Shown in pieces: positions 28,945 through 63,145 of a DNA stretch of 64,000 nt. The notes under the pieces were generated by a model that was given only the letters and a program-made list of their open reading frames with translations, did not search any database and was not told the DNA's origin. The DNA is from Tubiluchus corallicola (Eukaryota > Animalia > Priapulida): assembly GCA_030141605.1 (NCBI GenBank), contig JAQGDQ010000043.1, positions 310,001 through 374,000 of the forward strand. Reading direction: 5' to 3'. Every line of letters begins with the position of its first letter. Position 1 is the stretch's first letter. The translations under genes and the position numbers were made by a program.

Positions 28945-29140
28945 CATTTATTTATTTATTTATTAATATTTATTATTCTTATTTATTCTCCGCAACAACA
29001 TAACACGTAAGGCTTGCAAGCCAGGGTCACCAAACTCACAGGGTTGCTAGCCCTGTGCGGGGACGAACAACAGTACGGTGGCTACTGATCATTGGTCAAG
29101 GGGGAAGGGCAATGGGCGTATGCCACTTTTTCCTTTAGGT
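28945..29140 (-). mobile_element. Probable retroposon 3' end (stem-loop plus (TAAA)n tail)
   Basis: (TTTA)n at ~28946-28963 lies near the hairpin cacaggg-ttgctag-ccctgtg (29037-29057), the layout of CR1/L2-type 3' ends read on the - strand. Confidence 0.4.
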
Positions 29141-29239
29141 CGCATCTCTTGCTAGGCCTTTTGGTTTCTTGCAATTTTTTTTCGCACTTATTTGGGTACT
29201 GTAGGGTAGATGTGCACCTGCAGTTTTAAAAATTTCTGA

Positions 29240-29850
29240 TAAGCTTTAATTGCCCGAGGGAGAGGCCGAAATGCAAAATTTGGGGACCTCCAATTTGGTG
29301 ACCTTTTACATGCTGAGGACTAGGGACACAAAACTCACAGGGTATACTCTCTGGGCAAAGTTATTTACGTATACATGTGCCCCGAGTTACCGGGTTAAAG
29401 GTCACGGAGCGGGTGGGTCTTCATTTATTTTTCTGTAGGATCCATCTGCTTCTATAGTTTTTGAGCTAGCGCCACAACGTTTGGTATATTGGTAGGTGGT
29501 GTCGCACCCTTGCACATCACAAAATATGGAACATGCGCGTAGAGGAAAATTTTCCGCTAGGGGGCAAAAACTGAAAAGTGGGGGTAGGGAACAGAAGTGC
29601 ACTCAGTGTTGAGCAATGGTACCTTGTTGCATGTCAAATGAAAGGTCTCGGTGAGGCGGATGGAATGACATGGGTTACAATGAGAATAGTTAACCCGCAA
29701 CCCTGCTAGGGAAAAATAGGGGTCGAGGAAACAAATGTCTTCCAGTCTCGACCGAAAGTAGCTTGTAGTGTATCGAATGAAAGGTCTCAATGAGACAAAT
29801 TGAATGGTATAAGTTGCACCTAGATTGGTTGATCTCTGACCCCAGTAACT
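29240..29850. mobile_element. Probable non-autonomous interspersed repeat
   Basis: GC content jumps above the flanks; internal near-repeat aatgaaaggtctc..tgag.c..at.gaatg at ~29637 and ~29776; no coding signal. Class not assignable. Confidence 0.35.
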
Positions 29851-31564
29851 AAACTAAACTAAACAACATGACCGTCACAACTAATGTCTAATCAGCAGAT
29901 AAACTGATTGCTCTTTTTCATAAACACAAATTTGTAGAGCAGCAGCTATTTTAACACGAAATTAACACTTCAAGTAGCCAAAAATGACTTTTCAATTCAA
30001 ACAGAATGTAGAGACGAAGTTTCAAAGCACTACAAAACACAGAAACGTAAATATAATAAAGAAACTAAGCCAATTAGCCTTGCTTTACAATAAATGAGCA
30101 ACAAAAATAGTAAGTCTCTTTTGCCTTTAAACATGCGAACATCAAGCCTGCGATCTATTTTTCTATATTAATTGATCATGTGCTCGTCTGCAAGATTTAT
30201 TAAGGTTTTGTATTTTTCCGTTTGTCAGGAAATGCAACCAATTTGACTGTTCCATTCATAGACGACCCTCATGAATGCCCGAGTCAGATAAGTCCCAGTG
30301 GTATCTTTTAACCTTGATTATAACCAGAAAAATAGCGTAAAATTAGCTAATATTACATTGATATATAATATAAGTTTTGACCACATTTGAATTAATTTTG
30401 ACTATGAAGATCTCATTGAGGTTTATAAAAACTGGCCAGAAAAGAAAACATTTTGTTTTGTCTTTATTTAAAGTTAATCAAATAGTTGTTTTTTTCTAAC
30501 TTGCAAATCCATTGAACTAAACTAAACTGCGAATTTTCTTGATTGCAAAATGGTTTAACCAGCACCTCATAGACGTAAGTGTTGTGCATTTCTTCCTATA
30601 AACGAAACTAGGCTATATATTTCCACTAATTCACTCGCAATTTCAATTTACAATAATAAAATCTAGAACAAGGTCTATATTTCTCCCGCTAACTAATGAA
30701 AAGTTGAGCATTTTTCATAACAGTGTTAGACGGAGCTGTAGCTAAATGTCGCGAACGTACTTGCTGCAGGGGTGTGTGAAATAACTTGCACGCTGATTGG
30801 GCAGTCAACGAAAATGATTGACATTATGTTAGGCGTCAATTGTTTAACCGGCATTTCTTTAATGTACAAAGTAGTAACACAAGACATTAGAAAGCAAATT
30901 AGGGAGCTCTTAACAAGTTACTGTGCTATTGCTGTTGGGATGTTTAGTTCTCATGCAATATACTGTGGAGAACTGGTTTAAGATATGAGGTTACCCGATG
31001 GACTGTTTTCTCTCTTGTTTGCTCGACAGATGTATCTGTGTTAGCAGCACCGTTTCAGAAGCTTTCATACTTAAACACGATGTTGCTCGAAACACCACTA
31101 CAAACCTCCGCCATCACCATAACAGCAACAGTTCATGTTAATTCTACTTAAAATCATTAATCAATAAAGATTTATCAATAAAAATAATTTCTCTAGTTTC
31201 GAGATTCAAAGATTTAGTTTTACTTCACTACTTTTAACTGCATGACCCCGCCCACCACTTATTGGCGCCACCAGCTGTCAGCCTAAAAACTACTTTTTTA
31301 GGCAACAGATTCTCTTTGCAACGTGTGGCCGACGTCTGACTAGTTCTTTATATACTCCTCCCGAGTTGGTTTAAGAATATTTAACGTATAAAAAATGATA
31401 ACTTAAGAAAGCTTCAGGCAGTAAACATTCATGTATCAATGAGTGCTGACAGATGGCTCACAGCAGATGATACGCGCAATTTTGCGTCAGCTTTTTAAGT
31501 GAGCCTTTACCGATGGTTCTTGGAATTCCAGTATTAAGCTTTTGGCATATTTGTGATGAAAAAA

Positions 31565-32795: not shown

Positions 32796-33596
32796 CCACC
32801 TTCAAACATCTTCAAACACCATTTTGCAAGCAGCTATTAGTGCTTACACAGCTGTGACCATAAGATTGTGCCTCAAAGTGAGTAAGTACGACTACATAAT
32901 ATAATTACAGATCAGCATAAAATTTTGCGAGACTGTAAGCGTACAGAAGGTGCCGGGCAGTTCAACTAGTTTATAGAGTTCACTTTTAACTTTTTAAAAT
33001 AATTATTCTGTTACTTCGTTCGCGTTAGCTAGCCGAGCTGAAGATTCCTATATTATTGCCAGTAATTAGTTTTCGTTACATAGTGCGCATTGGGGTCACC
33101 ATAAAGTAAAAAATAGTATTAGTAATCTCTCGTTTAACTTTTTGGATTGTATCGTTGATAATAGTGACTGTAGGTACAAAAGAAGTTCGACCAGGCACCT
33201 TTATATAAGTGTTTATGTTTACGTTTCGCTCAAGCACCCTTATGTCACTCATACCAAGATAGGTGTTTATATTGTAGGTTAACCGGGTGCCGCCATTTTC
33301 GTTCAAAATAACGAAGTGATCGCGACTTTAAATTGATTTTATAAATTACGCAAGGATTTGTCAAATTTTGTTGCTGTAACTTTCAAACACTTTTCTCAAA
33401 TAAGTTCAACTTTCCGAGTAAATTGACTTTTGCTTTAAACTGGCACGAAGCACTACTTACCAGTCACACACACAAAAGTTGCAGCTCACAGCTTTGTGAA
33501 AGATTAACATTCAAGTGGTCAAGAAATAAGATCAAGCGATAAGAAAAACTAAAAAATTGTTGTTTTTTAGGAGAGCGACATTTTGATGAAAGGCAA

Positions 33597-36500
33597 ATGG
33601 AGAAAGCAGTCGTGATAATTACTCTGGTATACTGGATCCAATCAGAAACTTTGGGTCAACAACTGTTTGGACTTCCATTCGAAGATAATTACGACTATGA
33701 CAGTGACTACAAAGGTTCAATTGGAGAAACAGATGGACCGTCACTGCTAGACGGGTCGTCACCATGTTCTTGCATAAGCGTTATACAAAATCAGACGGAG
33801 CAGATAGAAGAGATGCTAAAGTCACTCTTTGTAGATATTACAACAAAAATTGACGCACTGCAGGAGTCAATCAGCGATAATAAATTAGACACACAAGCGC
33901 AAATAGACAACGTAAAAATGGCTTTAGGCACTGTAAGTGACAGCATTTCCGAAGATGTGAAAGCTTTGGACGATAAGCTAGTTCAGTCTAGTGACAGCAC
34001 TACCTCACAGTTAGAAAATGTTTCAAACTCACTTAATGACAAAGTAGCAGACTTACACAAAACTGTTTCAGAAACACAGCAAAATGCTATGACTCAAATA
34101 GATGATGTCAAAAGTAGCTTAGATACAGTGAAAGTGTTGCAAGGTGAACTTCATGAGAATCAGCGAAATGCATTGCGGCAGTTGGATGACACAAAAAATG
34201 TTGTGGAATCCTTGAAGAATTCTCAGGAGCAATTGGTAGATAATCAACAAAATACCTTATCCAAAGTTGGAGAAGCTAAAGATGTAATAGACTTTGTAAA
34301 GACATCTCAAGATATACTCAATGAAAACCATCAGACTGTTTTAGATCACTTAGAAAAATCTGACAGTACCATAAGTTCAATGGCAGAATCACAAAACGAA
34401 CTAGCTGAAAATCAAAAACATGTTTTTGATCAATTAGAAACAGCTAAGACTGCTTTGGGATCAGTTAAGAGTCTTCAAGAGAGGTCAACATTAATGCAGC
34501 AGAGCATGCTGACAAAAAGTGATGAAGCAAAGGATATTTTAGATGAACTGAAGCTTGGTCAGACTGAACTTAGTGAAAATCAGCATAGTGCATTAAAGCA
34601 GGTTAACGAATCAAAGAAATTTCAGGACAAGATATATGGCCAGCAGGAGAAGTTACAGGAAGAACTGGAAACTGTAATAGGACAAAATAAGGAAGTAAAG
34701 AATACGTTGGACTCTATAAAACCTTCGCAAGATTCATTAGCAAAAACTCAGCAGCAACTTTTATCAGAACTTGGCGAAACAAGCAAAGCTCTGGACACTG
34801 CACAACTGACCATTAACATTATTAGTGATAAGCAAGACAATGTAGTAGCAAAACTTGGTGATGCAAATGATGCCTTGGAGTCCATCAAAACATCTCAGGA
34901 AGACCTTGCAGTCCACCAAGAATCTGCTTTAACAGAACTTATAAATACAAAAGAAACATTAGATTCCTTAAAAAATGCACAAACAGAACTAGCACGGAAT
35001 CAAGTAACTATTTTAGGCGAGCTGGGACACTCTAAAGCATCACTTGAATCTGTCGGCAGTTCTCAGAAGAAGCTTACAGAAACACAACAGATTGTTTTAA
35101 TGAGAGTTGGAGACGCAAAAGATATTTTGGATGACTTGACACTCAGTCAAACTGGGCTCAGCGAGAATCAGCAAAACACACTAAATCAAGTAACTGAATC
35201 AGTCGGCTTGCTAAACAAGATAGATGGCGGCCAGAATAAATTATTAGAAAACCAAGAAACTGTAATGGGCCAGACCAAGAAATCAAACGTTTTACTGGCT
35301 TCAATGAAACTTTTACAAGAAACATTAGCAGAAACTCAACAAGAGACTTTAGTGCAAACTAATGAAGCAAATAATGCTTTAGATGCCGTAAAACTTTCCA
35401 TTGACGATGTAAAACAGAAACAAGATAACGCAATAGCAGAACTTGAAGATGTAGAATCTGCCTTAAACTTAGTCAAGTCAGTTCAAGAACAGTTTACTAA
35501 ACATCAAAAATATGCTTTAACGCAACTAGGAAATACACAAACTGAAATGATGCAAAATCAAAAAGCTACTTTTAATCAATTAGAGGAGGCTAAGGCAGTA
35601 TTTAATTCTGTTGTAGATGGTTATGAAAAGTCTAACGAAATGCAGCAGGAAGTGATGATGAAAGTTGAAAATACAACAGGTATCTTGACTGAACTGGGAA
35701 CAAATCAGCAGAATACGTTAAAGCAGGCCGTGGAGTCAAAAGAGCTTTTGAATAATATTAAAGGTCAGCAGGACAAGTTGCTAGACAATCAGCAAATAGT
35801 TTTACAAGACACTGAAAATTCAAAGGAAATGCTGGATTCGCTAAAAATTTCACAAGACTTGTTGGGTGAAACACAAAAGGAAACATTAAAAAATATTGGC
35901 AAATCTAAAGAAACATTAGATATGTTAACAGTGAAAACTGGCCTAATAGATCAACAGCAAGATAATATAGTAGCAAAACTGGATAGCACCAATCATACAT
36001 TACAGCTGATTGAAGACATTATAAAACAGAATCACGAAATAGCTCAATCTGGAGTAAAAAATATAAAAGACGATGTGGCATCAGTTAAATCTGCACAAGA
36101 GGCACTGAACAACGAATATCGTGACGCCCAATTGGCACTAAAGGAAATTATACGATCAGCCCAGGAAAATGCAGTATCTCAAATTCAAGATAGCAAAAAG
36201 ATATTGAGGGAAGTTGTTGGTCTCCAAAATGAGAACAGCAATACACTGAGTTTACTTGCAGAAAACGTAACTGCTGCTGAAAAAGATATTATTAGCAATC
36301 AACGAAAATCATTGATGGAGATGCAAGAAATGTATGAACACATAGGCAGTGTGTTGGACTTAACAAGAGTTGTTGGAAGTGACGTTGAAAATGTTGGAGT
36401 TACCTTGGAGAGGACAGCATCGAAGTTAGCTAATACACTAAGTGAAATATCTGATACGATGAATTTTTCTGTTTTACTGCTCCAGGACGACATGCTAGGT

Positions 36501-39500
36501 AATCATCGATTTCATGTTGAGCAGTTGCATTCTGTTAAATTGTCACTCAATGGAATATTAGAGGCTAGTGATGAAGTTAACGAGACATTAATAACCTTTA
36601 GAGATGATGTAATGCAAACAATAGCAAAATATCTATTGTTGTTAGGCGAGTTAACTGAGACATCCCATATTCTTAATGACAATGTAAAGCAACACGAGTT
36701 ACATGCTGTTAAGCGGCATGAAAAGATGATTGATGCTGTACAAGTATCAAAACGCGACGTTGCTAAAGAAATAGAAACAATTGGCACTGAAATTAACGGC
36801 AACATTGTGCCAATTAGGCGTAACATGCAACAAGTGTCAAAGTTAGTTAATGACAAAATCACAGATTTGGTTGATAGTATTGATGATAAACATGAGGTTC
36901 ACATAAATGGAATTAGTACTGTAACAGATATGCTTAGGTCAGTTGCTCTGTTAAATGACCAGACCACTGTGGACACCAAAGAAATTATCAGCCAAAATGA
37001 ACGCGTTGGCTTGATGTTTAACCAGACTTTACAAGATTTACAAAATGATATGCTTACTACACATGAGAAGAATGGCTTGTTGTTAAAAGATTTGAAGTTG
37101 CTGTGGGCTGAGTTTAAAGATTCGTCTTATGATCACAATCTCAACATCACAGCACTAACAAAAGATTTGATTGGTGAGCAGCTACAAACTAAGTTCCACA
37201 TTTCAAGAGTAAGCGAGATGTTAAATGCAACGTTTGCCACACTAGATGACATGCTCACATGCAAGCCATGCGAGGTACTAAACAACTTGATAGAGACTGA
37301 TCAATACACTGCAAATCATATTAGTCAGCTCACTACTATTCTGAATATAACATCAGAGTCGGCAGAAGGTAATTACCAAGCACTAAAGCGGGTACTGGAC
37401 ACAGTAGGTGGTGACGTTAGCATCATCAAAGAAACTAGTGAGGAGTTACAAGAAAACATCAAAGGTGTTTCAAATAAAGTCATTTCTACAGACAAGAAAT
37501 TATTGGGCCGATTAGATAGTATCAAGAATACCATGAATGAAAGTGTTATTCTGCAACAGAAAATTTATTCAGATAATGACGATAATAACATTCGACTTAT
37601 GAATTTAGGTATGCAACTAGATAATATTGAAAAACTTGCAAGCACAAGCAGCAGTACACTAAACGGGATGGAGGAAATTATTAAAAATGCAAGTGCAGAC
37701 ACACAGCAAAGTAACAAGGCTTTGAAACAAGTTTTAAACAACAATATAGATGTCGTTCAACAACAGATCTCAGAAAATCACAATGGAACATTGTCTTCAA
37801 TTGACAGCATCAGTAAGAATCTGCAAGAAAACAAAAAGGATGCTAATGCCAAGTTCAATGAAGTAAAAAGTTTCATAAATACAGCTTTGGCTTCAATTGA
37901 AAAATATTTGGATGATGAGCTAAGACACAACAGCAAAAACTTGTCATTACAAATGGAGACTATAAATGTTGCTTTGAATGACATAAAAAATGACAAGCAA
38001 TTGTTTTATGAAGACTTCAATAGTGACATGTATTCATTAAACACGACTGCCTTGGGATTGGATTTTAAAGCTGACCTCATTACAGAAGTGTTGCTTGGTG
38101 TTCAAAAGCAAATAGAGTCTATTGAATCACTGTCAAATGCAGTAAATGTTGCTCTTCCCGAAACAAACACTAAACTGGATAACGTTTTAGTAGATATACA
38201 GAAAAGCTCTGATACTTTAGATATGGTACTGCCTGTTTTGTCTGCTGATATATTTACCGTTTCAAAAGCTGTTCAACAGTCAGAGTTAAAACTTGATGAT
38301 ATTGTTGGGAAAGCAGCTGGTGTGAATCTAAGATTAGATGCATTAGTGAACCCAATTCTTGCAACAACAGCAGCAGTAAATGAGCTCAGTAATATTCCAG
38401 AAGTGCTAGTTAATACTTCTGAAACATTTAGCAAAAACATGAAAAATTTAGGAGTGAATATTGTCAAAATTGATGACAAATTGACTGCTCTTAGTGAACC
38501 TATACAGGAAACTGTTGCAATGGTTAGTACCATTAATGATGGTACAAACGAAATTTTGAGCAATACAGACAAGAAAAGTACAAGATCAATGGTAAAATTG
38601 GAGCTGTCAGCCATTTTAGATCTAATGGCAAATAGCTCTAGTGTACTCGGAGAACAAATTGAAGATATCATAGACAACGTGACGAAACATGCAGTAGACA
38701 TGAGTATGGAGCTAAAAACACACGTTTCAGACAAAAATAATGAAATGTTGTATAAACTCGACAATGTAGACGCAAGTCTCGTTTCAATGCTTGATGATGT
38801 TAATGTGCTAGCTAATGTTACAGCTGACAATCTTCCTGAAATAGTGAACACAGTAAGCACTATAAATTTAGAAATGGAGCCTATAATGGATGCTGTAAGA
38901 CTTATTCTTACTAAATCAGATGGTTATATCGATGCAGTGGAAAACATGACAAATGAGTTGGTGAATTCGCTAGAAAAGCAAATGCAGAAAAGTGATGAAG
39001 TTTTATACAAGAGAATTTCAGATACCATAACGAACGAAATTGGAGACCTTGGTACTGATGTCGAAACACAAGCTGCAGCTTTCTTAGAAAACATTGAAAT
39101 ATCAAAAGACCAAATGACGATTCTCCAAAATAATCTTGATTATATGCATAGAAATGTTACTCTAACAGACGAAAATGTTAGAGAAACATTGAAAAATGTG
39201 GAATCAACTATTGTAGCAACATATGAAAATTTCAACTTGTCTTTGGAATCTGCCACAGGCGATATAAAAACAAACTTGGATGACATCGATTCAATGATGA
39301 AACTATTATTGAATAATGCCACGAGCAGGGAATACGTTGTGGAGCCGATATTCAAACTGATAGAAAAGATGGGTACCACAATTTCAACAAAATATGCAAT
39401 ATTGCAAGACATGTTGCAAAACATTTCTGCAAGTAATTTTGACAACGAACATAAAGATTATCTTGAAAATTTCGCAAATGATTTTTCAGCGAATTTAGTT

Positions 39501-42500
39501 GGTCTTGAAGAAAAGCTGAGCAATGGTGTGCAAAGCGAAATAAGCCTGCTGTTCAAAAACATTTCTTCCACCGATAATGAAATGCTTCAGAAAATGGATA
39601 ACTTTGCAGCAGCTATTGATGACATTCATGAAAGCGTTATTATTTTATCTAACATTACTGGGGGAACAATACAGAAGGAAATAGCGGCAGAATTGGATTC
39701 TCTGCAGTACAACCTGTCATCCATAATCGATAATTCTGAACACATCGTAGAAGTGATGCATAATAAAACAGCAACTATGAAATTTCTGTTAGATGAAACA
39801 ATCGCTCAGCATCATGCTTTACTACCTGATGCTATTGCTGATTCTACCGCAAAAATAGTTGGCAATGTTTTTGAGATCCAACTTCATAGTTTTTCATCAG
39901 ATGTTTCTGCTTCTATTAATGACACCACTAAAACAATAGGAGATACTTTCCTGGAAAAGTTCAACGAGCAATACAAAAATCTTACACAATCAGACCAACA
40001 TTTTGAACAGCAACTTAATGAAGTCAAATCTCTAGTAGAGTTGGTAAGTGACGACTTAAATAGACTATCGAATGCAACATCAGAAAGTGTCCACCGTAAC
40101 ATCTATGATGTCAGAAAAGATATAGGAACAAAAGTTGATGGCCTTCAAGAAAATATGACTATAATGTTAGCAAACTCAGAAATCATACCGACTGTTTATT
40201 CTCTTGTGCAGCAACATGATAGCCGAACCGAGTCTGCAACTTCAAAATTGAAGCATGATATCATGGCGGATCATCAAATGCTTAGTGATACGTTAATAAA
40301 CTCAACAGCTATGCAGATCGACGAAGCTTTAGCAAAACTTTTAGCTACATTTGGCAGTTGCTGTGAACATGTTGAAGAAAAGTTGGTAAATCTGCATGGA
40401 AACTGGACGTCAGGTGAAGAAAGAACCCACGTTAGATTGGAAAACATTAGCTTGATACTTGCTGATGTAAATGACAATGTATATTCTTTGCCAAACGTTT
40501 TAGAAGTTTCTTTGCAGAACAAGCTAGACAGTATCGAGCAAGTTATTGTAAGCGGCAACAATAACATAAATTTACTTGCGAATGTTACTGCAACCTCAAT
40601 AAAAGAAAGTGTGGAAGATATTAAGCTGAGAAGCGATAACAACAATGACATTATAAGTCATCTGTATAACTCCACTTCAAGGAATTTGCAAAAGCAAATG
40701 GAGATAATTGCCGAGATACTTGGCGAAGGTGTTGACGATGTAAATTTGTCACTGAATATCACAGGAGAAAATCTAAAAAACGCAATTACGACTAGCCTTG
40801 AAAAGCTTAAGAAATCATCTAACGATTCATTTGATGAAAAGCTGGATGCTGCAAAATCAGACATCGAACAGATTCGCGATGCAATAGACGCAATAGCAAA
40901 TATTTCTGCTGTTACATTACAGGAACACGAAAGTCGTGAGAGCCAATCAGCAGACATCATTAGACATAATATGACCAAAATCATCAACTTTGCTGAAGAA
41001 TTAATAGAAGTCATTACGAATAAATCACACATTCTACAGCATGCAATACGTGACACTGGAAAAAAGTTAAGTGAAGAACATGACATCACTCGCAATTTGC
41101 TGTTAACAAGCACTGCTGAACTGCATAGTGCAATATCAGAAGGAGATAATAATTTGCAAGACACAGCAAAGAAAAGTGCTATGAGTATCCAGAACACAAT
41201 AAATGCAACAAAAGAAGACCTGTTTGTATTAATCTCTAATAATGATGCCAAGACGCAAAAAGAGTCACTAAGGTTTATTGAAATGAAGTTAGACGACCTT
41301 CATGATGCACACGAATTAAAAATAGAATTTCTGCTGGAAAATATCACTGCCCACTCAGACAACGAGGATGAATTGTTAAGAAAAAAATTTAAGGATGATT
41401 TTGTAACTGTTATTGAGAATATAACCCTTTTTGAAGATGTCACAAGTGACAAGATGAGCAGAATGGAAAATGCATTAAATGAAATCCTGCAAAAGATTTT
41501 TACACTGACCAATAACTCAAGGAGTTCAGAAACAGTTAATGCGGTTTTGGAAGATCGTATACAAACACAGATCGAAAATTTGGAAAACAATATTTCAAAC
41601 TACATTGCCCTTAGTGTTGGTGAAATTCAAGAGAAATCCATCGACTTATATGCTAAAGTAAAACAGGATATGTCCCACAACCAGAACAACATTCAAACCG
41701 CATTAGAAAACTTTACCTTTACTGATAATCAACTCAATGAATTCTATAACATCATTGAAAACAAGCTAAAAGATCTTTTGCAGTCATTCATGCATGACAG
41801 TTTAAATATAACAGGTCTGGAAATAGTGGAAAGAATTTCCGAATCTGACAGCTATATACAAAATCATGTCACTGCTGAGTCTAAAAAACTTCTACAGCAG
41901 CTTGTGAATTTAACTGGTGATATACTAGATAAACTAACTGCGGCAGAAAACCATGCAACCGATCAGATGGCAAATGTGGCGGATGCTATAAAAACAACTA
42001 AAACAGAAATTATAAGAGAATTAAAAAATAAAGTAGAGGAATTGCTTACCGACATTGAGAAAGACATAGATGATGGATTGCTAGGGTTACTTAATGTTAC
42101 AGGAAGCTTGATGTTTCAATCAAGTGACGAAAATCGAAATGCACAGGTGCAGAATGACACTGTCATTTTACTTTTAAACAAGAAACTTGACAACTTGAAT
42201 AAACTTTCCAAAGAAATTAACATGAAAATCGATAACCTACGAAATGTTACAGAAACGAGAGAAATGGAAACCCATATGGCTTTTCTTTCTCTTGAGAACT
42301 GCACCAGTGACGCCTCTAACACTTTGTCTTTCGTGAAAGCATCTGGAGAACTTAAAGAAGAAATAGGAAGCAACTTAACAAATTTACTTTTAACAATGCA
42401 TAGCTATTATAGCGACTTGGTACTATTTCTGAATGAAAAGTTTTCTAGCATAGAAAGTACAACAAAGACTATAGCAGATTCTAAAATTTTACCCAAGATT

Positions 42501-44859
42501 CAAAGTGTTCACAGTCAACTAAGAGAATACACAGGTGGTTTCATAAATCATGCAGCGATTCAAAAAACTGCCTTAGATGAATTGCTGATTGATTTAACAA
42601 ATATTGATGGAAGTATTAGCAATCTCTCTTTGATAATTCATCAGAATTTCCAAAAAATGCCGGAATATCATGAATTGTTAAGTGCACAAACTAAAGCTCT
42701 CAAAACAGTCTTTATTGGTACAACAGATGATCAAACAGAGACAATCACATCTCATTTAGTGAACACAATTGGCACGAAGCTTGGTCAATTGCAAGTAGAA
42801 ATAAACTTAACGACAACAGATATGGTACAGTCTTTAGACGACGCCTTGGCATTATCGACTGCTGCGATACGTGATGAAGTAAAGTCTGGAACTGCTGTCA
42901 TAGACAGTTGTTGCCAAAGTACAAAACACTCGATGTTGTCATTATCTGAACAAGTTGCTCACTTGACTAAAGCAAAAGCTGCCGAAAATTATACAATTTG
43001 CCAGCAATTTGATAACACTGTTTTAGACGAAATGCTGAAAAATACTAGCCTTATGTTACGAGAGAAGTCCAATTCCGAAGTAAATAATTTAATGCAGATG
43101 CTCTCACAAATGCAATCAGAACTTGATAGAAATTTGAAGCAATTACTGGAAAAAGAAAACCTTTTAGCAACTAGTGCAGACGTAGAATTGCTCAGCCATT
43201 CAATGATAAGCAATTATGTCGAATTTAAAGATGATATTAACAAGATTAGCAGTATGATCAACGAAAAAGCAGCTAATGACATAACAGTGGGCAGCCACAT
43301 CTACAATATTACAACAGTAACTGATAAACTGGAAGACACTAGCAGAAGTGTAAAATCATCATTAGAGCACATGACTGCAACTGTAAATAACAACAATGAT
43401 ATTATTGTTAACATGCATGAGACTCTGAAACATTTACAGTCAAGAGAGGGTAAGACAAAGGAAGGCATTGTCGCCTCGTCATTGAATGCTATTAAGGATG
43501 AACTTACTGAATTGAAAAACAAACACCCGATTCCACAGAAAATATTGACAACCTCTGACTGCAGCACAAACATGACTGCACTGGAAGCGGTTCTTGCTAA
43601 TCAGTTGGCTGAGAAACTACAACAGAGAACTGATGAGCAGTCAACTGAAGAATGTGTTGGAATGGTGCCCTATGTGAAAGAAGCTATTGGACTAATGAAA
43701 GATGATCACAAAAAAGTCCAGAAAAAACAGAAGGAGTTGGCGGATCAACTAAGCTTCAACAGCAGGCAGCTTCTAAGTCTTAAAGAAGAGACAATGGCAA
43801 TTCTTGATGAAATGGCTGACCAGGTAAATATGAACATGACTGATATTCAAATGGATGTGAACGATGTTAACAAAACTGTGAATGCCCTGAAAGATAACTT
43901 CTCAGTACATTCTATCGACCACGAAAGTATGTCTACTGAAGGAGATAAAAAATTGTCAACTGATCTAGAGCAGATGAAGAATCAACTTTCATCAGTGAAA
44001 CAAGTACAAAATAAACACCATAACGAATATGTGAATTTGCGTAATATTATGATGAAGGTAAGATCCAATTTTCAAGCACACGTCAAAAAAGCTGGCAATA
44101 TACCCGAAGAACTTGCTACATTTAAAAAGAAAATGCACACGTTTGAGGAAACAAAGACACATATAGACAGTGAAATGGAAAAAATTCAGCTCGATGCTAC
44201 GTATAATAGAAATGGCATCAACGAACAAAAAAGCATATTGGGGCGTTTAGACAACGAGATTAGTAATGTTGTGGAAAATGCAGAAAAAGTTAGCAGTAAA
44301 ATGAATGTACTGGAAAAAGAAATAAGCAACATTAATACAGATGTGAAAAATCTTGAAATATCGCAGTCAACACAAAATGATGACTTAGAATTACTGAAAA
44401 ATTCGGGAGAACAGCAAGAAAAAGTTTTGCGTAGCTTGCATAATGCCACTACTGTAAATGCAGAAATGATTCTTGGGTTAATTAAAACTGTCAAAGGAAA
44501 AGCGAGAAGTGAAAAGAAGCCTGACTCTCTCACTGATGATCTTAAAATGATCAACGAAAACATGAAGAAGCGTTACTCCCGTATGGATATCAGATTAAAG
44601 AACATCACAAAATCTCTGTCCAAGGAAGACAAACGAAATCGCATGGGATTTGTAAAGTTGAAGAAGAAGTTCAACAAGTACAGTAAGACTAATCAAAAAC
44701 AGTTCAATACTATCCAGAAGCGCCTCAGCAACCTGGAGTTAGTACCAAAGACAAACAACTTAAATAAGGTGCTCACCAAGCACGATCAAGATATAAAGGA
44801 GATCAAAAGCAACATGAGGCAGATTAACAGGACATTTACAACTTACATAACTAAGCGAG
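33597..44859 (+). CDS. Giant coding exon of a secreted coiled-coil/C1q-domain protein (multimerin/EMILIN-like architecture, ~3890 aa spliced)
   Basis: 11.3-kb uninterrupted ORF; acceptor tgttttttag| at 33570; signal peptide MEKAVVIITLVYWIQSETLG/QQ; heptad-like L/I/V pattern with very few Pro throughout; donor CGAG|gtacgt at 44860 (phase 1), just before the ORF stop. Confidence 0.93.
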
Positions 44860-44989
44860 GTACGTAATTCTAACTTTATGATTATTGTTACTAAGGTGCA
44901 AAGTTCAAATACATCGTTTTTTGCCATTTCGGTGCCAGACGAGATGTTTGGCATTCAAAACAAGGATTTTTTGTGTGTAACCAGGCGAG

Positions 44990-45190
44990 ATGACTTGCCA
45001 AGAATAATCTAAATTGCCTTGACGAATCCCTTTAACAGGCTGAACTAATGGGGTTGTGTAAGCTCCAGGACGAATTAAGGTTGCCACATTTCCATTCATA
45101 ACACAGTTGTAGGCTACTCGTGTAGGTTATAACTATCATGGCTATAGTAAACAGAGCTGGAAATGCCTTCACCAAGTATGACCCATCACA
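44990..45190 (-). mobile_element. Possible ancient LINE reverse-transcriptase fragment in the intron
   Basis: Minus strand has YLVKAFPAL (cf. DL.KAFD) and, ~48 codons on in another frame, PVKGIRQG (cf. GVRQG), at RT-like spacing. Very decayed. Confidence 0.3.
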
Positions 45191-45548
45191 CACTTGACCG
45201 ACGGATACCCACACAATCCGACATCCAATAACCCATCAGTGATAAAATGACCCACGTCTTAAAATAATGAACTTCAAATGTTTTTTTAGAAATTAATTAA
45301 TTTAATTTTTGCCTGGGTCTGGTTTCAGTCCAACCTTAATGTGACTTACCGAAAAACTTTGGCCAAGTGACCCTATGACCCTAGGGCCCATTTGAAGCTT
45401 AGCAGTAAATTGCTCAGTTTGTTGCAAAAGATAATTGTATCCATTTGAAAACATAAACTGTGCTTCTCGTAGAAATGTTTTGGTCTTACTGAGCTGTAAA
45501 ATTTGAACAGTTGACAATTTTTATGTTTTGATTTTTGTTGTTTTTTAG

Positions 45549-45958
45549 ATTTCTCGCCAATTCATTTCTCTGCTCGAGTTGGACATGACCAAGTAGTTGC
45601 CATGAGTGGTACAGTGACTTTTGACATTGTTTTAGACAATGTAGGCAACGGATTCAACGTGAAAAATGGACGTTTCGTAGCACCTGTGGACGGAATTTAC
45701 AGTTTTGACGTCACGGTTGTTTCAGATTATTATGAACGTGTCTTCGCTGTTCTTGTAGTGGGCAAGGAGGAAAAGATGTACTTGAATGCTGGTGGACATA
45801 ACGTCCGTGCATCTGGCAGCAATGCTGTCATTGTGACAATGCGCGCTGGTGAAGAGGCATTTGTTAGAATAAAACGGACGCCTTTCCCCAAAAGAAAATC
45901 CAGATATATTCCCAAACTTTTTACGACTTTTACTGGATTTTTGTTGGGAAGAAGCTGA
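45549..45958 (+). CDS. Terminal exon: globular C1q (gC1q) domain of the giant protein
   Basis: Long polypyrimidine tract + ag| at 45548; the phase-1 join gives KR-D-FSPIHFSARV..., in frame with ORF 45602-45958. C1q signature: FSA...VTFD.V..NVGNGFN..NGRFVAPVDGIYSF...SGSNAVIVTMRAGEEAFV...FTTFTGFLL. AATAAA at ~46368. Confidence 0.93.
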
Positions 45959-48114
45959 AAAATGCCTGTTAAAATGCGTTAATACAAAAGTCTTCTGCGC
46001 TTCAATCAGGAACGACCGCCTGCCACTGAGAAAAAAACGCGGTAAAATGCGTGCTCTATGTAGACCTTTGCGCACGCAGCAAAAATGCACTTCCCAAAAT
46101 TCCAAACAAAAGTTAAGAAAGAATTACCACCATGAGACCATAGAACTCAACGGCTGGGAAGTTTGACCAGTGAAAGTTCAATTTTTGTTGAAGAATACTG
46201 TATATTATTATTGTTATTATTGTAAATAATTAAAATGGTAATTCAGAAATTAGTATTTTAAGAATGAGTGTTTATGTGAAACCACAAATTGTTGATAGAA
46301 TGTGAATGATGACTTGAGCAGGACTTTATAGAGTTATTATTATGGGCCAGTTTTGTGAAAAAATGTGAATAAACGATATTTTAATACCACATGCGATATT
46401 GAGTTATCAGCCTTATCTCTTGAGTAATGCAAACTATACAATAAGCTGGTAGTTTAGCCTTTATTTTTTCAATGGGTTCGAATTTGATGTTTCAGTAAGA
46501 GGCCCGTTGATCCTGCAACAAATTATAAAAGTGCGTACGAGCAAAAGAGAAATTTGATCGCAGCAAGAAATACAATATGGATATAGTAATTGTTTATTAG
46601 CAAGGAATTGAAAGTTGAAAAATGCAAATGCTTCAGTGATTCGTTCTGTGGTTTATATATGTGTAAGAAAATTAATGGAACATATGATCTAACCGTGGAC
46701 AAATTAAGAGATCGTACAGAGATTTATTACGGACCGTCCAGTTACTCCAGTGATCAATGATGGTTGCATGAATCATCATACTACAATCGTACATACGTCA
46801 GACCTCAATACTCCACATGTGATGGTTACGAATCAGATGTGTCTACACAGTATGATCAGTACAATTATAAATTTTACTAGTATTTCGCAAACTATTCATA
46901 AGTTAGCATAATTTTTGTTTTTAAATACCTCTTAATAATTCACTATGATGAGTGGATATATAATGTAAATAACATTATTTTTAACTGTTTTCGTTTTCAG
47001 TTGTTATGCGACGAATTAACAGTTCTCTTAGTATTTGTCACTGGAATATAAATGGCCTGTTTATTAAAATTAACAATGACAGGCTCAGTAAATTTTATTT
47101 TCCAGATTTCACTAGCGATTTGACAAAACATAATATTATATGTTTGTCTGAAACTCATTGCAATAAAATGACTTTATTCATCTAAATAATTACTATACTT
47201 TTCAAAACAAAAGGCCTAAATATAGTAAAAAAAATTGGTGGTTTAGCAGTATTAATTAGGAAAGAAATTAGATCAGGTATAAAATTTGAGCCTACTATTT
47301 CAACTGAATATTAGTGGTTTTAACTATGCAAACAAAATTTTAAAACTAGTGAAGATATTTATATATGTCAGGTGTACGTACCACCAGGAATGTCGTCGTA
47401 TTCTCTTCGTACTATGATTGATTTTTACTCGTTACTAGAAAAAGAAATCGTAGGATATTCGAAGCTTGGTAAAAATTTTCTCTCGAATCGGATCACAAAA
47501 AGATTACATAGTAGACGATAGTTCTAAATATATACCGTTACCTAAGTCCTACAGATGCGACAGTAATTTAGGGCCACGTAATAACTATGATAAACACACA
47601 ATCTGCGGATACGGAAAAAAGCAGATAAATTTGTGCGTATTAGCAGGACTGCGAATATTAAATGGCCGCACAGTCGGCGATCTTTCCGGAAATTTTACTT
47701 GCTTCAAATATCAAGGTAAAAGTGTGGTAAATTACATGATATTTGATGACAAAACGATAGATCTTATTGATTATATGTATGTTAACAACTTCACTACATT
47801 TTCAGACCACTGTAAATTCTCAGCGTTGCTTAATGTATGTAAACCCGTTGCTAACTTTTTATGATTTTAAACGTAGTCTCGTATGTGAACATGCTGTTAT
47901 TTATAAAATGTTGCCATCTTTTAGCCAGGCCTTAGCAAATGCTCTAGCTGCACATTCTAATCTTAAACAACATCTTATTAAATGCGGACCTAATGAAGTC
48001 GAAAATAACTTTTTATGACTATATATATAACTAAAATGATATTTTCCGTAGTGTAGCTAAGAACACATTACCACCGAAACGAGCTTTTCACAATATAACA
48101 GCAAAACATAAATC

Positions 48115-48394
48115 ATGGTATGACAAAGAATGCCAAACTAGTTACAGAACTCTCTCTCAACTGGCTAGAGCTCTTTCAAATGATCCAAAAAATTACGCTA
48201 TTCACTCTACGTCTCATAAACTAAGAAAAACGCATAAAAAGCGTTTGAAGAAAAATGGTATGACAAAGAATGCCAAACTAGTTACAGAACTCTCTCTCAA
48301 CTGGCTAGAGCTCTTTCAAATGATCCAAAAAATTACGCTATTCACTCTACGTCTCATAAACTAAGAAAAACGCATAAAAAGCGTTTGAAGAAAA
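48115..48394. repeat. Exact 140-bp tandem duplication inside the LINE
   Basis: 48115-48254 and 48255-48394 read identically (atggtatgacaaagaatgcc...gcgtttgaagaaaa). Confidence 0.95.
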
Positions 48395-50419
48395 GCAACC
48401 TAGAAATAAACTTTTATCTATTCTGGAAAACACTAGTCACGACGACCCAAAAATGTCATGGGAGACTTTAGAAAACATTGACGGAACTCCAGGCAATTCA
48501 AATTCTATTACCAATGTGACAAAATTTCATAAATATTTCAAGGAGCTGATGACTAAAAATGAAAAGTATCAATTATTTCAAAACACTTCGCATGTTAGAA
48601 ATATTGAAAATTATGTAAAAGAGATTAATCCAGCATCCTTTACTAAATTAGACTATCGTATTTCCGAAAATGAAGTCCAAGAAGCAATAATTTCTTTAAA
48701 AATTAATAAGGCGCCAGGCAAAGATGGAATAATAAACGAAATGATCAAAAGTGAAATTACAGTATTAACACTAACACCAACATTATATTTTAATTCAGTT
48801 TATTCACTCGGAAAATTTCCAAAAGCCTAGGCTAATTGTCTAATCACACCTATATTAAAGAAAGGAGACCCAACAGATCCCTCAAACCATAGAGGTATCT
48901 CTATTAGTAGTAATCTCGGTAAAGTATTTTGTACATAAAAGACTGGAAAATGACCTAATCGAACGTAACATAATTAAGAAAGAACAAATTGTGTTTAGGA
49001 AAAGAACAAATTATATACTTACCTTGAAAACTGTAGTTGATAAATATATTAATCAAGCACGACGAAAATACATATATGCATGCTTCATTGACCTTAAAAA
49101 ATCTTTGATACTATTTACAGACCTTTTTCATTTTACAAATTACTAAAATATGACTTTGGCACTAAATTTTACAACATAATAAAAAGCATGTACGCTTCCA
49201 TAGATGCGCAACTTAAAATCTCAAATAATAATTTATCTGATTCTTTTCCAGTAAATGTCGGCGTTAAACAGGGATACGTATTAAGTCCAATTTTATTTAA
49301 TTTGTTTATAAATGACATCACAACAATTTCTAATGATAAATGCGACCCGCCCATATTAAACAAAAACTACTTGCAATTACTAATGTACATTGTGGTCTTA
49401 TCTACTTCTCAGAAAGGTTTGCAGAATAGTTTTTAAGAATAACTTAAAACAACACTGTGATGACTGTCTGCTAAATATTAACCTAGAAAAAACAAAAGTA
49501 ATTATTTTCAACAAAGGCGGTCACAGAATATCCAAGCAAAGCTTTACTATAGGCCAGGAAAGTTTTGAAATTGTTCAAAATTATACTTATTTGGGGACAA
49601 ACTTTAATGCAAGCGGGTTATTTATCAAGACGAATTATGCAACAAAGCAAGAAAAGCTTTTTTCAAATTCAAGCAAAAATTCTGGGAGGATAAAGTAAGC
49701 TATAAAATATTAACGCACTTATTTGATAGTTTAATAAAACCAATCGCATTTTATGGTTCAGAATGTTGGTCCCCTTTCTCGTTTAATGGTAGGAAAATAT
49801 CAAAAAAATAATGAAATTACAGTTGAAAATATATACGATGATTTACCCATGCAATTACTTAACGTAAAGTTATGTAAGTTCGCTCTTGGCGTTAATAAAT
49901 TTTCCGTTAAGCATGCAGTCAGGGGAGAGCTGGGTCGTTTCCCTCAATACGTAGACGTTATAATTAGGAAAATAAAATACTGGCTTAAAATACTGAACGC
50001 TCCACAAAATACATTGATATACCAAACCTACGAAGAAAATAAAATTCTTCTTAACCAAAATACGGGATGTAGGTTACAATTTGTAAGAAACATTTTACGT
50101 CATTTGGGCTTTTCTCATATTTGGGAACAGCAGGGGTCGATCAAACCAAATCTTTTCTACATGCTTTAAAGGAGAAACTACAAACAAATTATTAAATTTA
50201 CTGGAAGGCATGTGTTACAAAAGAAACCGGCAAAACAGCGAAACTAATAAACTACGAAACTATACAAAATTTAAGCAAGAATTTGAAGCCGAAAAGTATC
50301 TTCTTTTTATACATAATCATGTACTAAGATCGAACTTTACTAAACTGTGTAGCAGTTCTCACAACTTGTATATAGAAAACGGCCGACATTGCATACCCAA
50401 AATACCTGTTAACAATCGA

Positions 50420-50491
<72 letters not shown>

Positions 50492-50492
50492 C

Positions 50493-50570
<78 letters not shown>

Positions 50571-50591
50571 CATCATCATCATCATCATTAT
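50420..50591. repeat. (ATT)n/(ATC)n microsatellite
   Basis: Directly visible. Confidence 0.98.
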
Positions 50592-50720
50592 TGTGTTGAC
50601 GATTATACCCCATGTGCGAGGTTTTGTTTGTGTAGTTTTTTCTTCATTGTAATGTAATGTTTTGTAATTGTAATCGTAATTGTAATTGTATGGCTTGTAA
50701 ATCGTCAATAAAAAATATAT

Positions 50721-52150
50721 ATTTTAAAGACAATTATTGATAAATACCTCTCTGCAAACAATAAGTTACGTGCTTGCTTTGTTGATTTTAAGAAAGTGCT
50801 TGATTCGGTGGATAGGACTTATTTGTTGTATAAACTTATTTACCTTGGCTTGAAAGGTAGAACATTGCGAATAATTGCCCGAATACACAAATGTACAGTT
50901 AATTGTGTAAAAACGGATACGGGTTTCTCCGAGAGTTTTCTAGTAAACCAAGTAGTTTTGCAAGGGTGTACATTTTCACCAATTTTATTTTGTCTGTACT
51001 TGAGCGATCTAGAAGAGCATTAAAATATAAACGATGCAGATTGAGTTACTCTAGTTTATACAGTTACTTGCTTGCTTATGTTTGCATACGATTTAGTGTT
51101 ATTAAGTCTATCTAAGGAAGGTTTACAAACACAATTGAATCTTTTAAATACGTACTGTAAAAAATGGAGATTAACTGTTAATGCTAGCAAAACTAAGATT
51201 TCAATTTTTGAGAAATGAAACACTGTAACATAGAAAATATGCCTTTTTGTTGCGATAATAATTGGTTAGAACATTGTTCAGAATATAAATGTTTGGGTGT
51301 TTATTTTTACCAAAACTGGATATTTTAACCACTTATTACAACAGGGAAACAAAGCTAAATTTTGTTTGTATAGTAAAGCGGAAACTTTTGGTTTCTTTGA
51401 TGTAAATCTGGCCATCTCTCTGTTTAATATTTATTTTAATATTTGGAATATAGTTGCGAGGTTTGGGGTACACGGCATTTTGAAAATTTGGAAAGAACGT
51501 GTTTAAGTTATTATGAAGTAATTTTGGGCGTTAAAATGCAAACACCAACACCTGCTGTATTGGGGAATTAGGCGTGTATCTAGTCAGTTTGGAAATTCAA
51601 ATGCTGGTGGTATTGGCTGAGGCTAGTCTCACTACCTGAAAGTAACCTGTGCAAAGAGCCATTTGATGTACAAAAAATTGAATTTGACATGATATGTTTA
51701 ACTCAGAAGTATTTTACATCAAATTAATAGGGTTTTTTTGTTGAAATATAACATAACACCGCTTTATTTTAATACTGTATATCTTTCAGAAATGAGACTG
51801 CAAGTAAATTATGTTTTATCATGGAGAGAGTCTTTAAACTCTATGAGCAAATTATCTTTTTATAGATTATTTAAAAAGAATTTTGAAGTGGAAATTTATT
51901 TAGAAAATGTTAAGAATATTAAAGACAGTAAGGCTTTGACAAAATTTAGAACTAGGGCTCATCGTTTGGAGGTTGAAACTGGTAGATACGTAAGGCCACC
52001 TGTTCCACGTGAAATTCGAGTTTGTAGTGTCTGCAATGTTGTTGAAGATGAATGCCACTTTTTTTACTATACTGCTCAATACATAACGTTGCACGTAACT
52101 TTATGTTGAACACCGTTTCTCAGGATGTTCCTACTTTTAATGTTTTACCT
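50721..52150 (+). mobile_element. Second, 5'-truncated degenerate RTE-X-like LINE
   Basis: ILKTIIDKYL...RACFVDFKKVLDSVDR, VLQGCTFSPILFCLYLSDL, LLMFAYDLVLLS (FADD equivalent), KLSFYRLFK..FEVEIYL, LTKFRTRAHRLEVETGRY.RP.VPRE.RVCSVCNVVEDECHFF (C-terminal Cys motif); A-run at ~52137-52147. Confidence 0.9.
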
Positions 52151-55949: not shown

Positions 55950-56305
55950 GTAAGTAAAGTCTAAATTTATTACCACTGTTATGTACTGTTCAATTTGTTA
56001 CTTTGCTGCAAAGCGTAGACATAGAATGTAAATAAATTTATTATTAATGATGTGGCTAGAATTATCAAAATTATGTAAGTGTGTATTGAATGAATGAATG
56101 AATCAAACATCTTGGCATGACTCCTTCATTTCACAAGTATTACAACTATTTCATTCTTTAAAAAAATTGGTATACAGACCACACTTGCAGGTGTATGTTT
56201 GTGAAACCTTGCCTAAATTACAAACAATAGCACTTATAGTAGCGTATTGAAAAGTTTAAATTTCTATTGCATTTATAGTGATCATACTTATTTTTTTTAA
56301 TTTAG

Positions 56306-56520
56306 GAACCTTTGCACAGTCCAATGAGCCCCCTCACTTTATTAATGATATGGACCAAGAAACAATAAGTGAAAACACACCGGTTGGTACAAAAGTCTAT
56401 ACCCTTGTTGGAGTTGATAGAGACAGAGATCCTGTTCGATATGGAGTAGAAGGAACTACAGCTTTTCGTGTTGATCGAGACAGTGGTGAAGTTTACTTAA
56501 ATGAACCCTTAGACAGAGAG
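56306..56520 (+). CDS. Cad87A: Cadherin-87A-like exon 2 (EC1)
   Basis: tttag|; NEPPHF..DM...ISENTPVGTKVYTLVGVDRD...SGEVYLNEPLDRE; |gtaaga. Confidence 0.92.
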
Positions 56521-62847: not shown

Positions 62848-62909
62848 GTAAGTGTAGTGATAGTGAAATGTTTATCCTTAATAGTAGATCTTCTGTAGCT
62901 CATACTGTT

Positions 62910-63082: not shown

Positions 63083-63145
63083 AGATGTTTTTCACTTTGC
63101 CACATATCAAAAATTTTGCTTTGTTTCATTTTTATGTATTTTCAG

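What the first reader, a model, noticed from the sequence alone, without database searches (positions are those of the whole stretch)
33597..45958. A ~3890-aa secreted coiled-coil rod capped by a C1q head: a possible half-micron extracellular fibre protein
Seen: the 3756-aa ORF and the separate 118-aa C1q ORF are one gene. The phase-1 donor at 44860 and acceptor at 45548 join them in frame (11263 + 410 nt = 3890 aa + stop). Layout: signal peptide, short acidic head, PCxC, ~3700 aa of Pro-poor heptad-like sequence, basic neck, gC1q. No collagen Gly-X-Y, EMI, EGF or transmembrane segment is visible. Known: gC1q domains trimerise and nucleate the stalk N-terminal to them; the familiar coiled-coil + C1q proteins (multimerins, EMILINs) are about 1000-1200 aa, and most invertebrate C1q-domain proteins are a few hundred aa. 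Inference: a homotrimeric rod about three times longer, up to ~0.55 micron if continuous at ~0.15 nm/residue. It could be a structural fibre, tether or adhesive/mucus/capsule component, or a long-reach lectin stalk. An ORF-only annotation would miss the C1q link.
Basis: partly seen in the sequence, partly recalled or inferred. Interest (0 to 1): 0.88.

Follow-up and report, generated by a model that had tools for sequence, protein, structure and literature searches.

The report
Giant secreted C1q-capped glycoprotein rod
An invertebrate gene, probably of a mollusc or relative, encodes a 3,890-residue protein with an export signal, about 3,700 residues of predicted helix and a C1q head, which likely assembles into a sugar-coated three-stranded rod up to half a micron long and would be about nine times longer than any characterised invertebrate C1q protein in the review I read.

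Summary
The gene is real. A 3,754-codon exon joins a C1q exon across a 689-nt GT-AG intron to give 3,890 aa. The Pfam C1q match starts upstream of the small ORF's ATG, and one contig of a ~92%-identical relative or paralogue is spliced at exactly this junction. The stalk shows helical amphipathic periodicity in 25 of 26 windows but strict heptads in only 10: an unbroken 500-residue heptad block of 28/196-residue repeats, a heptad neck, and an irregular middle. New features: 59 evenly spaced N-glycosylation sequons in the middle, paired-cysteine motifs, and an acidic rod (-240) with a basic neck and head (+29). The C1q head belongs with lophotrochozoan signal-CxC-coiled-coil-C1q proteins, whose stalks reached at most 300 aa among 71 single-domain hits. 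It is not an EMILIN or multimerin (no EMI domain). Best reading: a hugely elongated 'type II' C1q protein acting as a disulfide-knotted, glycan-coated extracellular strut. Trimer state, continuity of the middle, a full-length transcript, tissue and function are untested. No homologue of the rod was found, but my searches could not see diverged ones.

The parts
33548..33570 (+). Possible splice acceptor 26 nt upstream of the ATG; suggests an unlocated upstream exon, probably 5' UTR
   Evidence: T-rich tract plus TAG ending at 33570, 11 of 20 pyrimidines, only fourth best in 33000-33600; in-frame stop 19 codons before the ATG. Not tested with RNA.
33597..44859 (+). Coding exon 1, 11,263 nt, ending in phase 1
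   Evidence: Two stretches inside it (39660-39813, 43627-43788) are held by X2 contigs with frame-preserving indels.
33597..33656 (+). Predicted signal peptide, aa 1-20
   Evidence: Most hydrophobic 11-residue window of the protein (aa 4-14, mean 2.62; next best 1.92), Lys at position 3, small residues at -3 and -1. Judged by eye; no SignalP available.
33765..33773 (+). CxC motif (C57, C59) at the start of the rod; candidate interchain disulfide ring
   Evidence: CxC directly before a heptad stretch in short relatives P0013, P0022, P0029, P0080, P0139. Best PDB hit of aa 51-130 is the matrilin-1 coiled coil 1aq5, E 0.5, not significant.
34053..35996 (+). Strict heptad block, aa 153-800, built of 28-residue repeats with a 196-residue super-repeat; Gln at many core a positions
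   Evidence: No register jump in aa 151-650, z 13.6 against shuffles; Gln at 32 a positions. aa 293-460 and 489-656 are 44% identical. AlphaFold2 gives one helix of 194 residues for aa 293-488, pLDDT 93.8.
36897..43946 (+). Middle stalk, aa 1101-3450: amphipathic helix of period mostly 3.56-3.70 with 59 evenly spaced N-x-S/T sequons
   Evidence: 59 sequons against 36 +/- 5 in shuffles (0 of 5000 reach 59); spacing CV 0.59 against 0.94 (5 of 5000 as low). Period.
37260..37271 (+). CxxC motif (C1222, C1225) with a proline
   Evidence: Sequence; disulfide role inferred
40359..40364 (+). CC pair (C2255, C2256)
   Evidence: Sequence; disulfide role inferred
42909..42914 (+). CC pair (C3105, C3106)
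   Evidence: Sequence; disulfide role inferred
43884..44858 (+). C-terminal heptad neck, aa 3430-3754; basic from about aa 3620
   Evidence: Period 3.51-3.52; 4 register jumps against 8.9 in shuffles, z 10.7; net charge +22 in aa 3621-3755
44860..45548 (+). Phase-1 GT-AG intron, 689 nt
   Evidence: Skipped exactly by X2 contig; stops in all three frames
45549..45958 (+). Coding exon 2: whole gC1q domain and stop codon
   Evidence: Pfam PF00386 E 3.8e-17; cerebellin-1, caprin-2, C1QL and EMILIN-1 heads in the PDB; ESM Atlas best cluster C1q, commonest phylum Mollusca, score 0.96
46229..46373 (+). First candidate polyadenylation signals (ATTAAA 46229, AATAAA 46368)
   Evidence: Motif scan only

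Best explanation
The gene splices one 11.3-kb exon to a C1q exon to encode a 3,890-residue protein that is likely secreted and likely assembles, from its C1q heads, into a three-chain helical rod predicted to be locked by disulfides and coated with N-glycans, most likely serving as a long strut or cross-linker in an extracellular matrix or secretion. Shown: gene structure, the splice in a close relative or paralogue, C1q domain, helical periodicity along the stalk, the strict heptad ends, sequon excess and spacing, charge asymmetry. Inferred steps: (1) the signal peptide (aa 1-20) takes the chain into the ER, where sequons about every 31-40 residues are glycosylated; (2) three gC1q domains trimerise and set the register, and the heptad neck zips the coil from C to N, as proposed for EMILIN1; (3) the middle continues as a loosely supercoiled coil with frequent stutters and skips, giving a semi-flexible rather than rigid rod, at most about 550 nm long; (4) CxC at the N-terminal end and CxxC/CC pairs along the way form interchain knots or link trimers into multimers; (5) glycans about every 4.5-6 nm and a net charge of -240 per chain keep rods hydrated and apart, while the basic neck and head (+29) bind acidic partners such as glycans, cell or mineral surfaces, or other rods. 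A trimer would be about 1.3 MDa before glycans.
For: Splice and coding constraint: junction contig; of 31 classified differences to X2, 19 are synonymous, 12 are not and none makes a stop; 5 of 5 in the C1q exon are synonymous. Helix: 25 of 26 non-overlapping 140-residue windows beat shuffles at period 3.45-3.70; all 9 segments beat shuffles in an ad hoc heptad model, z 3.0-13.6, against z 7.3-8.9 for the stalks of three short relatives; proline-free runs of 696 and 667 residues; one 194-residue helix at pLDDT 93.8. Secretion: sequon excess, 0 of 5000 shuffles. Class: short relatives share CxC-coil-C1q, the 'sC1q-like type II' layout (PMC6835236, passages). gC1q nucleation and disulfide-linked multimers in EMILINs (PMC3342094, section 16). 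Cysteines at a coil end linking matrilin chains (PMC2427018, passage). Beta-branched residues at both a and d in the middle fit a trimer by recalled GCN4 rules.
Against: In aa 1100-3450 the heptad model needs 71 register jumps, no fewer than shuffles, and a period near 3.6 fits any amphipathic helix. The single-sequence model of aa 2330-2655 is helical with breaks and unreliable (pLDDT 45.9). Splice support is one contig of one run, 18 of 226 letters different, so it is not the window's own allele. In-frame donor-like sites inside exon 1 (e.g. 37369, 43927, 43450, 42535) score as well as or better than the real donor and could give shorter isoforms. The sequon motif was the most regular of 42 motifs tested, but the second (D-x-[LI], CV 0.61) was close. 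There is no myosin-like 28-residue charge wave, so no sign of staggered filament packing. Characterised invertebrate C1q proteins are mostly recognition lectins rather than fibres (PMC10672478, passages). No data on tissue.
Confidence: 0.55

Rival explanations
1. Same trimeric rod, but a soluble long-reach recognition protein: the C1q heads bind microbial or particle glycans, and disulfide-linked rods agglutinate or net targets in haemolymph or mucus.
For: Type II C1q proteins of bivalves are described as opsonin-like pattern-recognition proteins (PMC6835236, passages). The head is basic (net +6; pI about 9.8). The N-terminal CxC could bundle several trimers into a bouquet.
Against: Those proteins are 128-454 aa (PMC10672478) and sit in tandem clusters, whereas no second C1q or rod copy lies in this 64-kb window. 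The head looks conserved (5 of 5 differences synonymous; few sites). A 0.5-micron stalk is costly for recognition alone (inference).
Confidence: 0.2
2. Only the two ends are coiled coils; the 2,300-residue middle folds back into helical hairpins or bundles, or wraps lipid, making a much shorter particle such as a storage, carrier or egg-fluid glycoprotein.
For: Middle period 3.56-3.70 with autocorrelation at 11, 18, 22 and 29 residues; register jumps as frequent as in shuffles; broken helices in the low-confidence model; weak Atlas look-alikes include an apolipoprotein-type cluster, score 0.77, which the tool calls a lead only.
Against: Proline is 0.8% and glycine 3.2%, with a 667-residue proline-free run inside the middle, unlike hairpin repeats. 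The hydrophobic phase mostly carries on across sequons. Both flanks are parallel-type heptad blocks. No Pfam bundle or apolipoprotein family reaches its cut-off.
Confidence: 0.15
3. The working product is shorter than 3,890 aa, because internal in-frame donors splice to the C1q exon or the precursor is cut into several rods.
For: Phase-1 donor-like sites inside exon 1; 9 KR/RR dibasic sites; no contig spans the gene.
Against: The ORF is intact over 11.3 kb; X2 holds middle pieces with frame-preserving changes and only the 44859 junction was seen; no R-x-K/R-R furin site in exon 1.
Confidence: 0.1

Closest known systems
Secreted C1q-like type II proteins of molluscs and other lophotrochozoans (signal peptide + coiled coil + C1q; PMC6835236), e.g. 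hits KAG5712157.1 (Batillaria, 244 aa), XP_046361322.2 (Haliotis, 241 aa), KAK3603118.1 (Potamilus, 407 aa)
   Same: Domain order; CxC before the coil in several of them; related C1q head (about 30-39% identity); no collagen; a two-exon layout is also reported for a group of oyster type II genes.
   Different: Stalk about 3,700 aa against at most 300 aa (median extension 67, many fragments) in 71 single-domain hits; 70 sequons against 1-3 in three short stalks; 28/196-residue repeats; internal cysteine pairs; its head forms a separate clade with only two unnamed fragments, P0001 and P0002 (SH-aLRT 100).
Vertebrate EMILIN/multimerin family (PMC3342094)
   Same: Secreted glycoprotein with a long coiled-coil-prone middle in one large exon and a C-terminal gC1q; homotrimers and disulfide-linked multimers. 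Best functional analogue.
   Different: No EMI domain; central region about five times the ~700 aa stated; no collagen, proline-rich or EGF insert; the review found no invertebrate matches; C1q head is nearer cerebellin-1 (E 5.6e-11) than EMILIN-1 (E 1.9e-4). Probably convergent.
Matrilin-1 trimerisation coil (PDB 1aq5)
   Same: Paired cysteines at the N-terminal end of a coiled coil that link chains covalently; top PDB hit for aa 51-130.
   Different: E 0.5, not significant; the matrilin coil is about 40 residues, C-terminal, and follows vWA domains.
Stalks of trimeric autotransporter adhesins and alpha/beta coiled coils (PMC4786415)
   Same: Very long trimeric stalks with polar core layers and register insertions, ending in a binding head.
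   Different: Bacterial; Asn at d rather than Gln at a; no association of register breaks with the N-x-T motifs here. Analogy only.

Membership tests
C1q-domain-containing (C1qDC) proteins | C-terminal gC1q domain | tested here: met
   PF00386 63.1 bits, cut-off 23.7, model 2-127 of 127; junction seen spliced
sC1q-like type II | N-terminal signal peptide | tested here: inconclusive
   Hydropathy and cleavage pattern fit; no SignalP or Phobius available; an upstream exon is unlocated
sC1q-like type II | Coiled-coil region before the C1q domain | tested here: met
   Strict heptads directly before the head (aa 3430-3754) and at aa 151-650, by my own periodicity tests and AlphaFold2, not by COILS; the middle is less clear
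sC1q-like type II | No collagen tail; single C1q domain | tested here: met
   No (G-x-x)4 run; one C1q match in the window
sC1q-like type II | Oligomerises (trimer) through head and coil | not tested
EMILIN/multimerin | N-terminal EMI domain, about 80 aa with 6-7 cysteines and WRCCPG(Y/F)xGxxC | tested here: not met
   Only C57 and C59 in the first 1,200 residues; no EMI hit in Pfam; definition from PMC3342094
EMILIN/multimerin | Long central coiled-coil-prone region plus C-terminal gC1q | tested here: met
   about five times longer
EMILIN/multimerin | Disulfide-linked multimers of homotrimers in the matrix | not testable with these tools
   Needs non-reducing gels and localisation
C1q-like type I (collagen tail) | Gly-X-Y triple-helix tail | tested here: not met
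   No run of four or more triplets; Gly 3.2%, Pro 0.8%
Myosin/paramyosin-type filament rods | 28-residue alternating charge zones for staggered packing (recalled) | tested here: not met
   Charge power at period 28 is 0.0-2.0 against shuffle thresholds of 7-10 in all six regions
Alpha/beta coiled coils (beta-layers) | 2- or 6-residue insertions with [aliphatic]-A-T-K-[polar]-[DE]-type motifs | tested here: inconclusive
   One near-match at about aa 2535; register jumps are not enriched at sequons (15 of 71; 16 +/- 3 expected); motif from PMC4786415

The most novel reading that the evidence does not exclude
A lineage-specific, half-micron, three-stranded glycoprotein fibre: a small CxC-coil-C1q lectin was stretched more than tenfold inside one exon by 28- and 196-residue duplications into a continuous rod with a glycan brush every ~5 nm and disulfide knots, which polymerises or cross-links through its basic head and acidic shaft into a structural gel or thread that is neither collagen nor silk.
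Probability: 0.3. Interest if true: 0.8.

Novelty: new variant of a known kind. Interest (0 to 1): 0.52.

Why it matters
If the rod is continuous it would be far longer than the C1q-capped coils in the papers I read (EMILIN/multimerin about 700 aa; characterised invertebrate C1q proteins 128-454 aa in total). That makes it a natural test of whether one C-terminal trimer can register 3,700 residues of coil, and a candidate building block of an invertebrate matrix or secretion. It also shows a route from a recognition lectin to an EMILIN-like matrix protein without shared ancestry of the stalk. ORF-only annotation splits it into an anonymous coiled coil and a truncated C1q, so others like it may be hidden. 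Its function is not known, and the domain order itself is an established class, which limits the score.

Tried and rejected
No whole genome is held for this window, so paralogues and the upstream exon could not be sought beyond it. Word-based protein searches found nothing: C1q query against proteins of 238-2000 aa, rod aa 50-900 against 2064-6570 aa, rod aa 3050-3754 against 30-2063 aa. These miss diverged rods, and none could find a protein over 2000 aa by its C1q head; the HMMER search covered all lengths but listed only 150 of 1183 hits. Exact look-up of both ORFs and two neighbours: 0 of 4 in the collection. The metagenome scan gave 2 loci (33% and 44% identity); L001 holds short coil + C1q genes, and neither has a long ORF. 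Rod against the 152 fetched proteins by BLASTP: no hit at E 0.01. ESM Atlas for aa 1841-3000: best score 0.85, low recognition, lead only. Foldseek of the single helix: no match. Profile of the repeats against the PDB: nothing below E 0.5. Rfam: 0 matches. The run search listed no holder on record as RNA; X2 came in by species label. X2 gave no cover of 33597-39659 or of most of the rod at 80% likeness; this is not evidence either way. Rejected: beta-layers at the sequons (the hydrophobic phase is locked upstream of sequons, resultant 0.34, but phase breaks across them are 22% against 17-20% elsewhere); outward placement of sequon Asn as special evidence (54 of 59 non-core, but other Asn 143 of 158); myosin-like packing despite the 28/196 repeat; transmembrane anchor. 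An alignment of overlapping repeat windows (A2) collapsed on identical sequence and was dropped. Ten paper searches were run; six of them sought long invertebrate C1q proteins and none listed a title or abstract describing one. The library lacks most subscription journals. Earlier scan notes held nothing on this gene.


Full report
Gene structure. The window holds a 3756-codon ORF at 33597-44867 and a 118-codon ORF at 45602-45958 on the + strand. Cutting at GAG|GTACGT (44859|44860) and TTTTTTAG|AT (45548|45549) gives 11263 + 410 nt, 3890 aa and a stop. The Pfam C1q model matches exon 2 over positions 2-127 (63.1 bits, cut-off 23.7) and starts 12 residues upstream of the small ORF's Met, so that ORF alone is truncated. 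The acceptor has the best pyrimidine tract in the interval, and the intron is closed in all frames.

Direct support for the splice. The run search listed two runs, neither on record as RNA. X1 matches unique parts of the window almost exactly, and one contig runs from 44512 to 44898, into the intron. X2 (RNA by the tool's guess) has a 226-nt contig that skips exactly 689 nt, GT..AG, with 114 and 112 nt on the sides, and two more pieces inside the rod. X2 differs at 18 of 226 letters there, so it is a close relative or paralogue, and it is one contig of one study. Of the 48 differing letters in these coding pieces the table listed 31; 19 are synonymous, 12 are not, none makes a stop, and 5 of 5 in the C1q exon are synonymous. 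The indels keep the frame (a 3-nt deletion and a -1/+1 pair). No contig links the 5' half to the head, and several in-frame donor-like sites inside exon 1 score as well as the real one, so shorter isoforms are not excluded.

Anatomy of the protein. Residues 4-14 are the only strongly hydrophobic stretch and read as a signal peptide; no 19-residue window reaches transmembrane values. An acidic head of about 35 residues ends in P-C-S-C. The mature chain is 433 kDa, pI 4.85, with net charge -240 over aa 21-3600 and +29 over aa 3601-3890. Hydrophobic periodicity of 3.45-3.70 beats shuffles in 25 of 26 non-overlapping windows; 10 of them have period 3.53 or less. An ad hoc heptad model of my own finds no register jump in aa 151-650 (z 13.6) and 4 in aa 3431-3754 (z 10.7), but 71 in aa 1100-3450, as many as in shuffles, although every segment scores above shuffles. 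The N-terminal block is made of 28-residue units with Gln at two successive core positions (14 and 15 of 17 units) and a 196-residue super-repeat, 44% identical. AlphaFold2 with a four-row repeat alignment gives one 194-residue helix at pLDDT 93.8. A middle piece folded alone is helical with breaks at pLDDT 45.9, which is not interpretable. There is no 28-residue charge wave.

Exon 1 has 70 N-x-S/T sequons. In aa 1101-3450 there are 59 against 36 +/- 5 in shuffles (0 of 5000), while aa 21-1100 has 8 against 12 +/- 3. Their spacing is even: CV 0.59 against 0.94 (5 of 5000), with a mean gap of 40, and 31 in aa 1850-2930. This was the most regular of 42 comparable motifs, though not by much. It points to passage through the secretory pathway and a glycan coat along the shaft. 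The 12 cysteines, all in exon 1, include CxC (57/59), CxxC (1222/1225), CC (2255/2256) and CC (3105/3106). I tested whether the sequons mark beta-layer joints as described in PMC4786415 (passages read) and found no association with register jumps.

Relatives. HMMER over 1.84 billion representatives gave 1183 hits for the head and listed 150. Two unnamed Logan fragments, P0001 and P0002 (56% and 53% identical; 133 and 165 aa), group with the window at SH-aLRT 100 in a quick tree of 71 rows (the window plus 70 single-domain hits; multi-C1q proteins and short domains left out; the careful search did not finish). Their stalks are unknown. Named neighbours among the 20 proteins looked up are from gastropods, bivalves, a chiton, a cephalopod and Lingula, and the Atlas's best cluster is mostly molluscan. 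The organism is therefore probably a lophotrochozoan, most likely a mollusc; I could not establish this. Among 71 single-C1q hits the longest N-terminal extension is 300 aa. Five of them carry CxC directly before a heptad stretch, the same plan as here in miniature. No homologue of the rod was found, within the limits given under Tried and rejected.

Comparison with the literature. PMC6835236 (passages) defines secreted type II C1q-like proteins as signal peptide, coiled coil and C1q, the commonest class in oysters; this protein meets the sequence criteria. PMC10672478 (passages) gives 128-454 aa for characterised invertebrate C1q proteins and says the role of their coiled coils is untested. 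PMC3342094 (passages and section 16) defines EMILINs and multimerins by an EMI domain, a coil-prone region of about 700 aa and gC1q, and describes likely C-to-N nucleation by gC1q and disulfide-linked multimers. The EMI domain is absent here, so the protein may work like them but is not one. PMC2427018 (passage) supports covalent linking by cysteines at a coil end; the matrilin coil was the top but non-significant PDB hit for the CxC region. PMC8881648, PMC8878817 and PMC4944945 (passages) added nothing on long forms. No supplements were read. The trimer preference of beta-branched cores and the myosin charge repeat are recalled, not from calls.

Mechanism and verdict. The likeliest reading is a secreted homotrimer nucleated by the head, zipped through the neck, semi-flexible in the middle, knotted by disulfides and coated with glycans, at most about 550 nm long (3,695 residues at 0.148 nm), and used as a strut or cross-linker outside the cell. 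I put the architecture (secreted, trimeric, mostly extended) at about 0.75 and the structural role at about 0.55 overall. A long-reach lectin, a folded-back middle and shorter mature forms are the rivals. The finding is a real, unusually large variant of a known class, with no description found in the searches named, and with its function open.

Noticed in passing
window 33337-35337: X1 contig depth is 25-41 over the 5' end of the gene (one contig at 34230-34993 has depth 50 and no differences) against 0.6-17 over the rest of the ORF. It could reflect extra copies of the repeat block or of the gene's 5' part, but the tool warns that this depth is not a copy number.
   Followed up: no
window 56260-63310 (+): Exons of a cadherin gene with a signal-peptide-like start; two pieces pass the Pfam cadherin cut-off.
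   Followed up: partly
window 47454-52109 (+): Frameshifted LINE-type retrotransposon remains with RVT_1 matches at 49098-49433 and 50712-51020; an exact 140-bp tandem duplication at 48115-48394.
   Followed up: partly
window 7983-8801 (+): 272-codon open frame, very rich in Asp, with a TGA-triplet repeat at 8486-8564; no Pfam family. Possibly an exon of an acidic low-complexity protein.
   Followed up: partly
window 4355-5283 (-): Two hydrophobic open frames; one ends in a motif recalling helix 7 of rhodopsin-type receptors (recalled resemblance). No Pfam support.
   Followed up: partly
window 29000-31000 and 33315-33349: High-copy interspersed repeats upstream of the gene (X1 depth up to about 1200; also hit by X2 at 81-90%).
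   Followed up: no
window 33586-33615 (+): A short out-of-frame upstream ATG 11 nt before the start codon opens a 9-codon frame overlapping the signal-peptide codons.
   Followed up: no
L001 1539-2331 and 3334-6641: A metagenome contig with what look like two tandem, intron-containing short signal + coil + C1q genes, the ordinary-sized version of this layout.
   Followed up: partly
proteins P0093, P0012, P0071, P0146: Other large C1q proteins among the hits (1264-2552 aa) reach their size by repeating the C1q domain 3-9 times rather than by one long stalk.
   Followed up: partly
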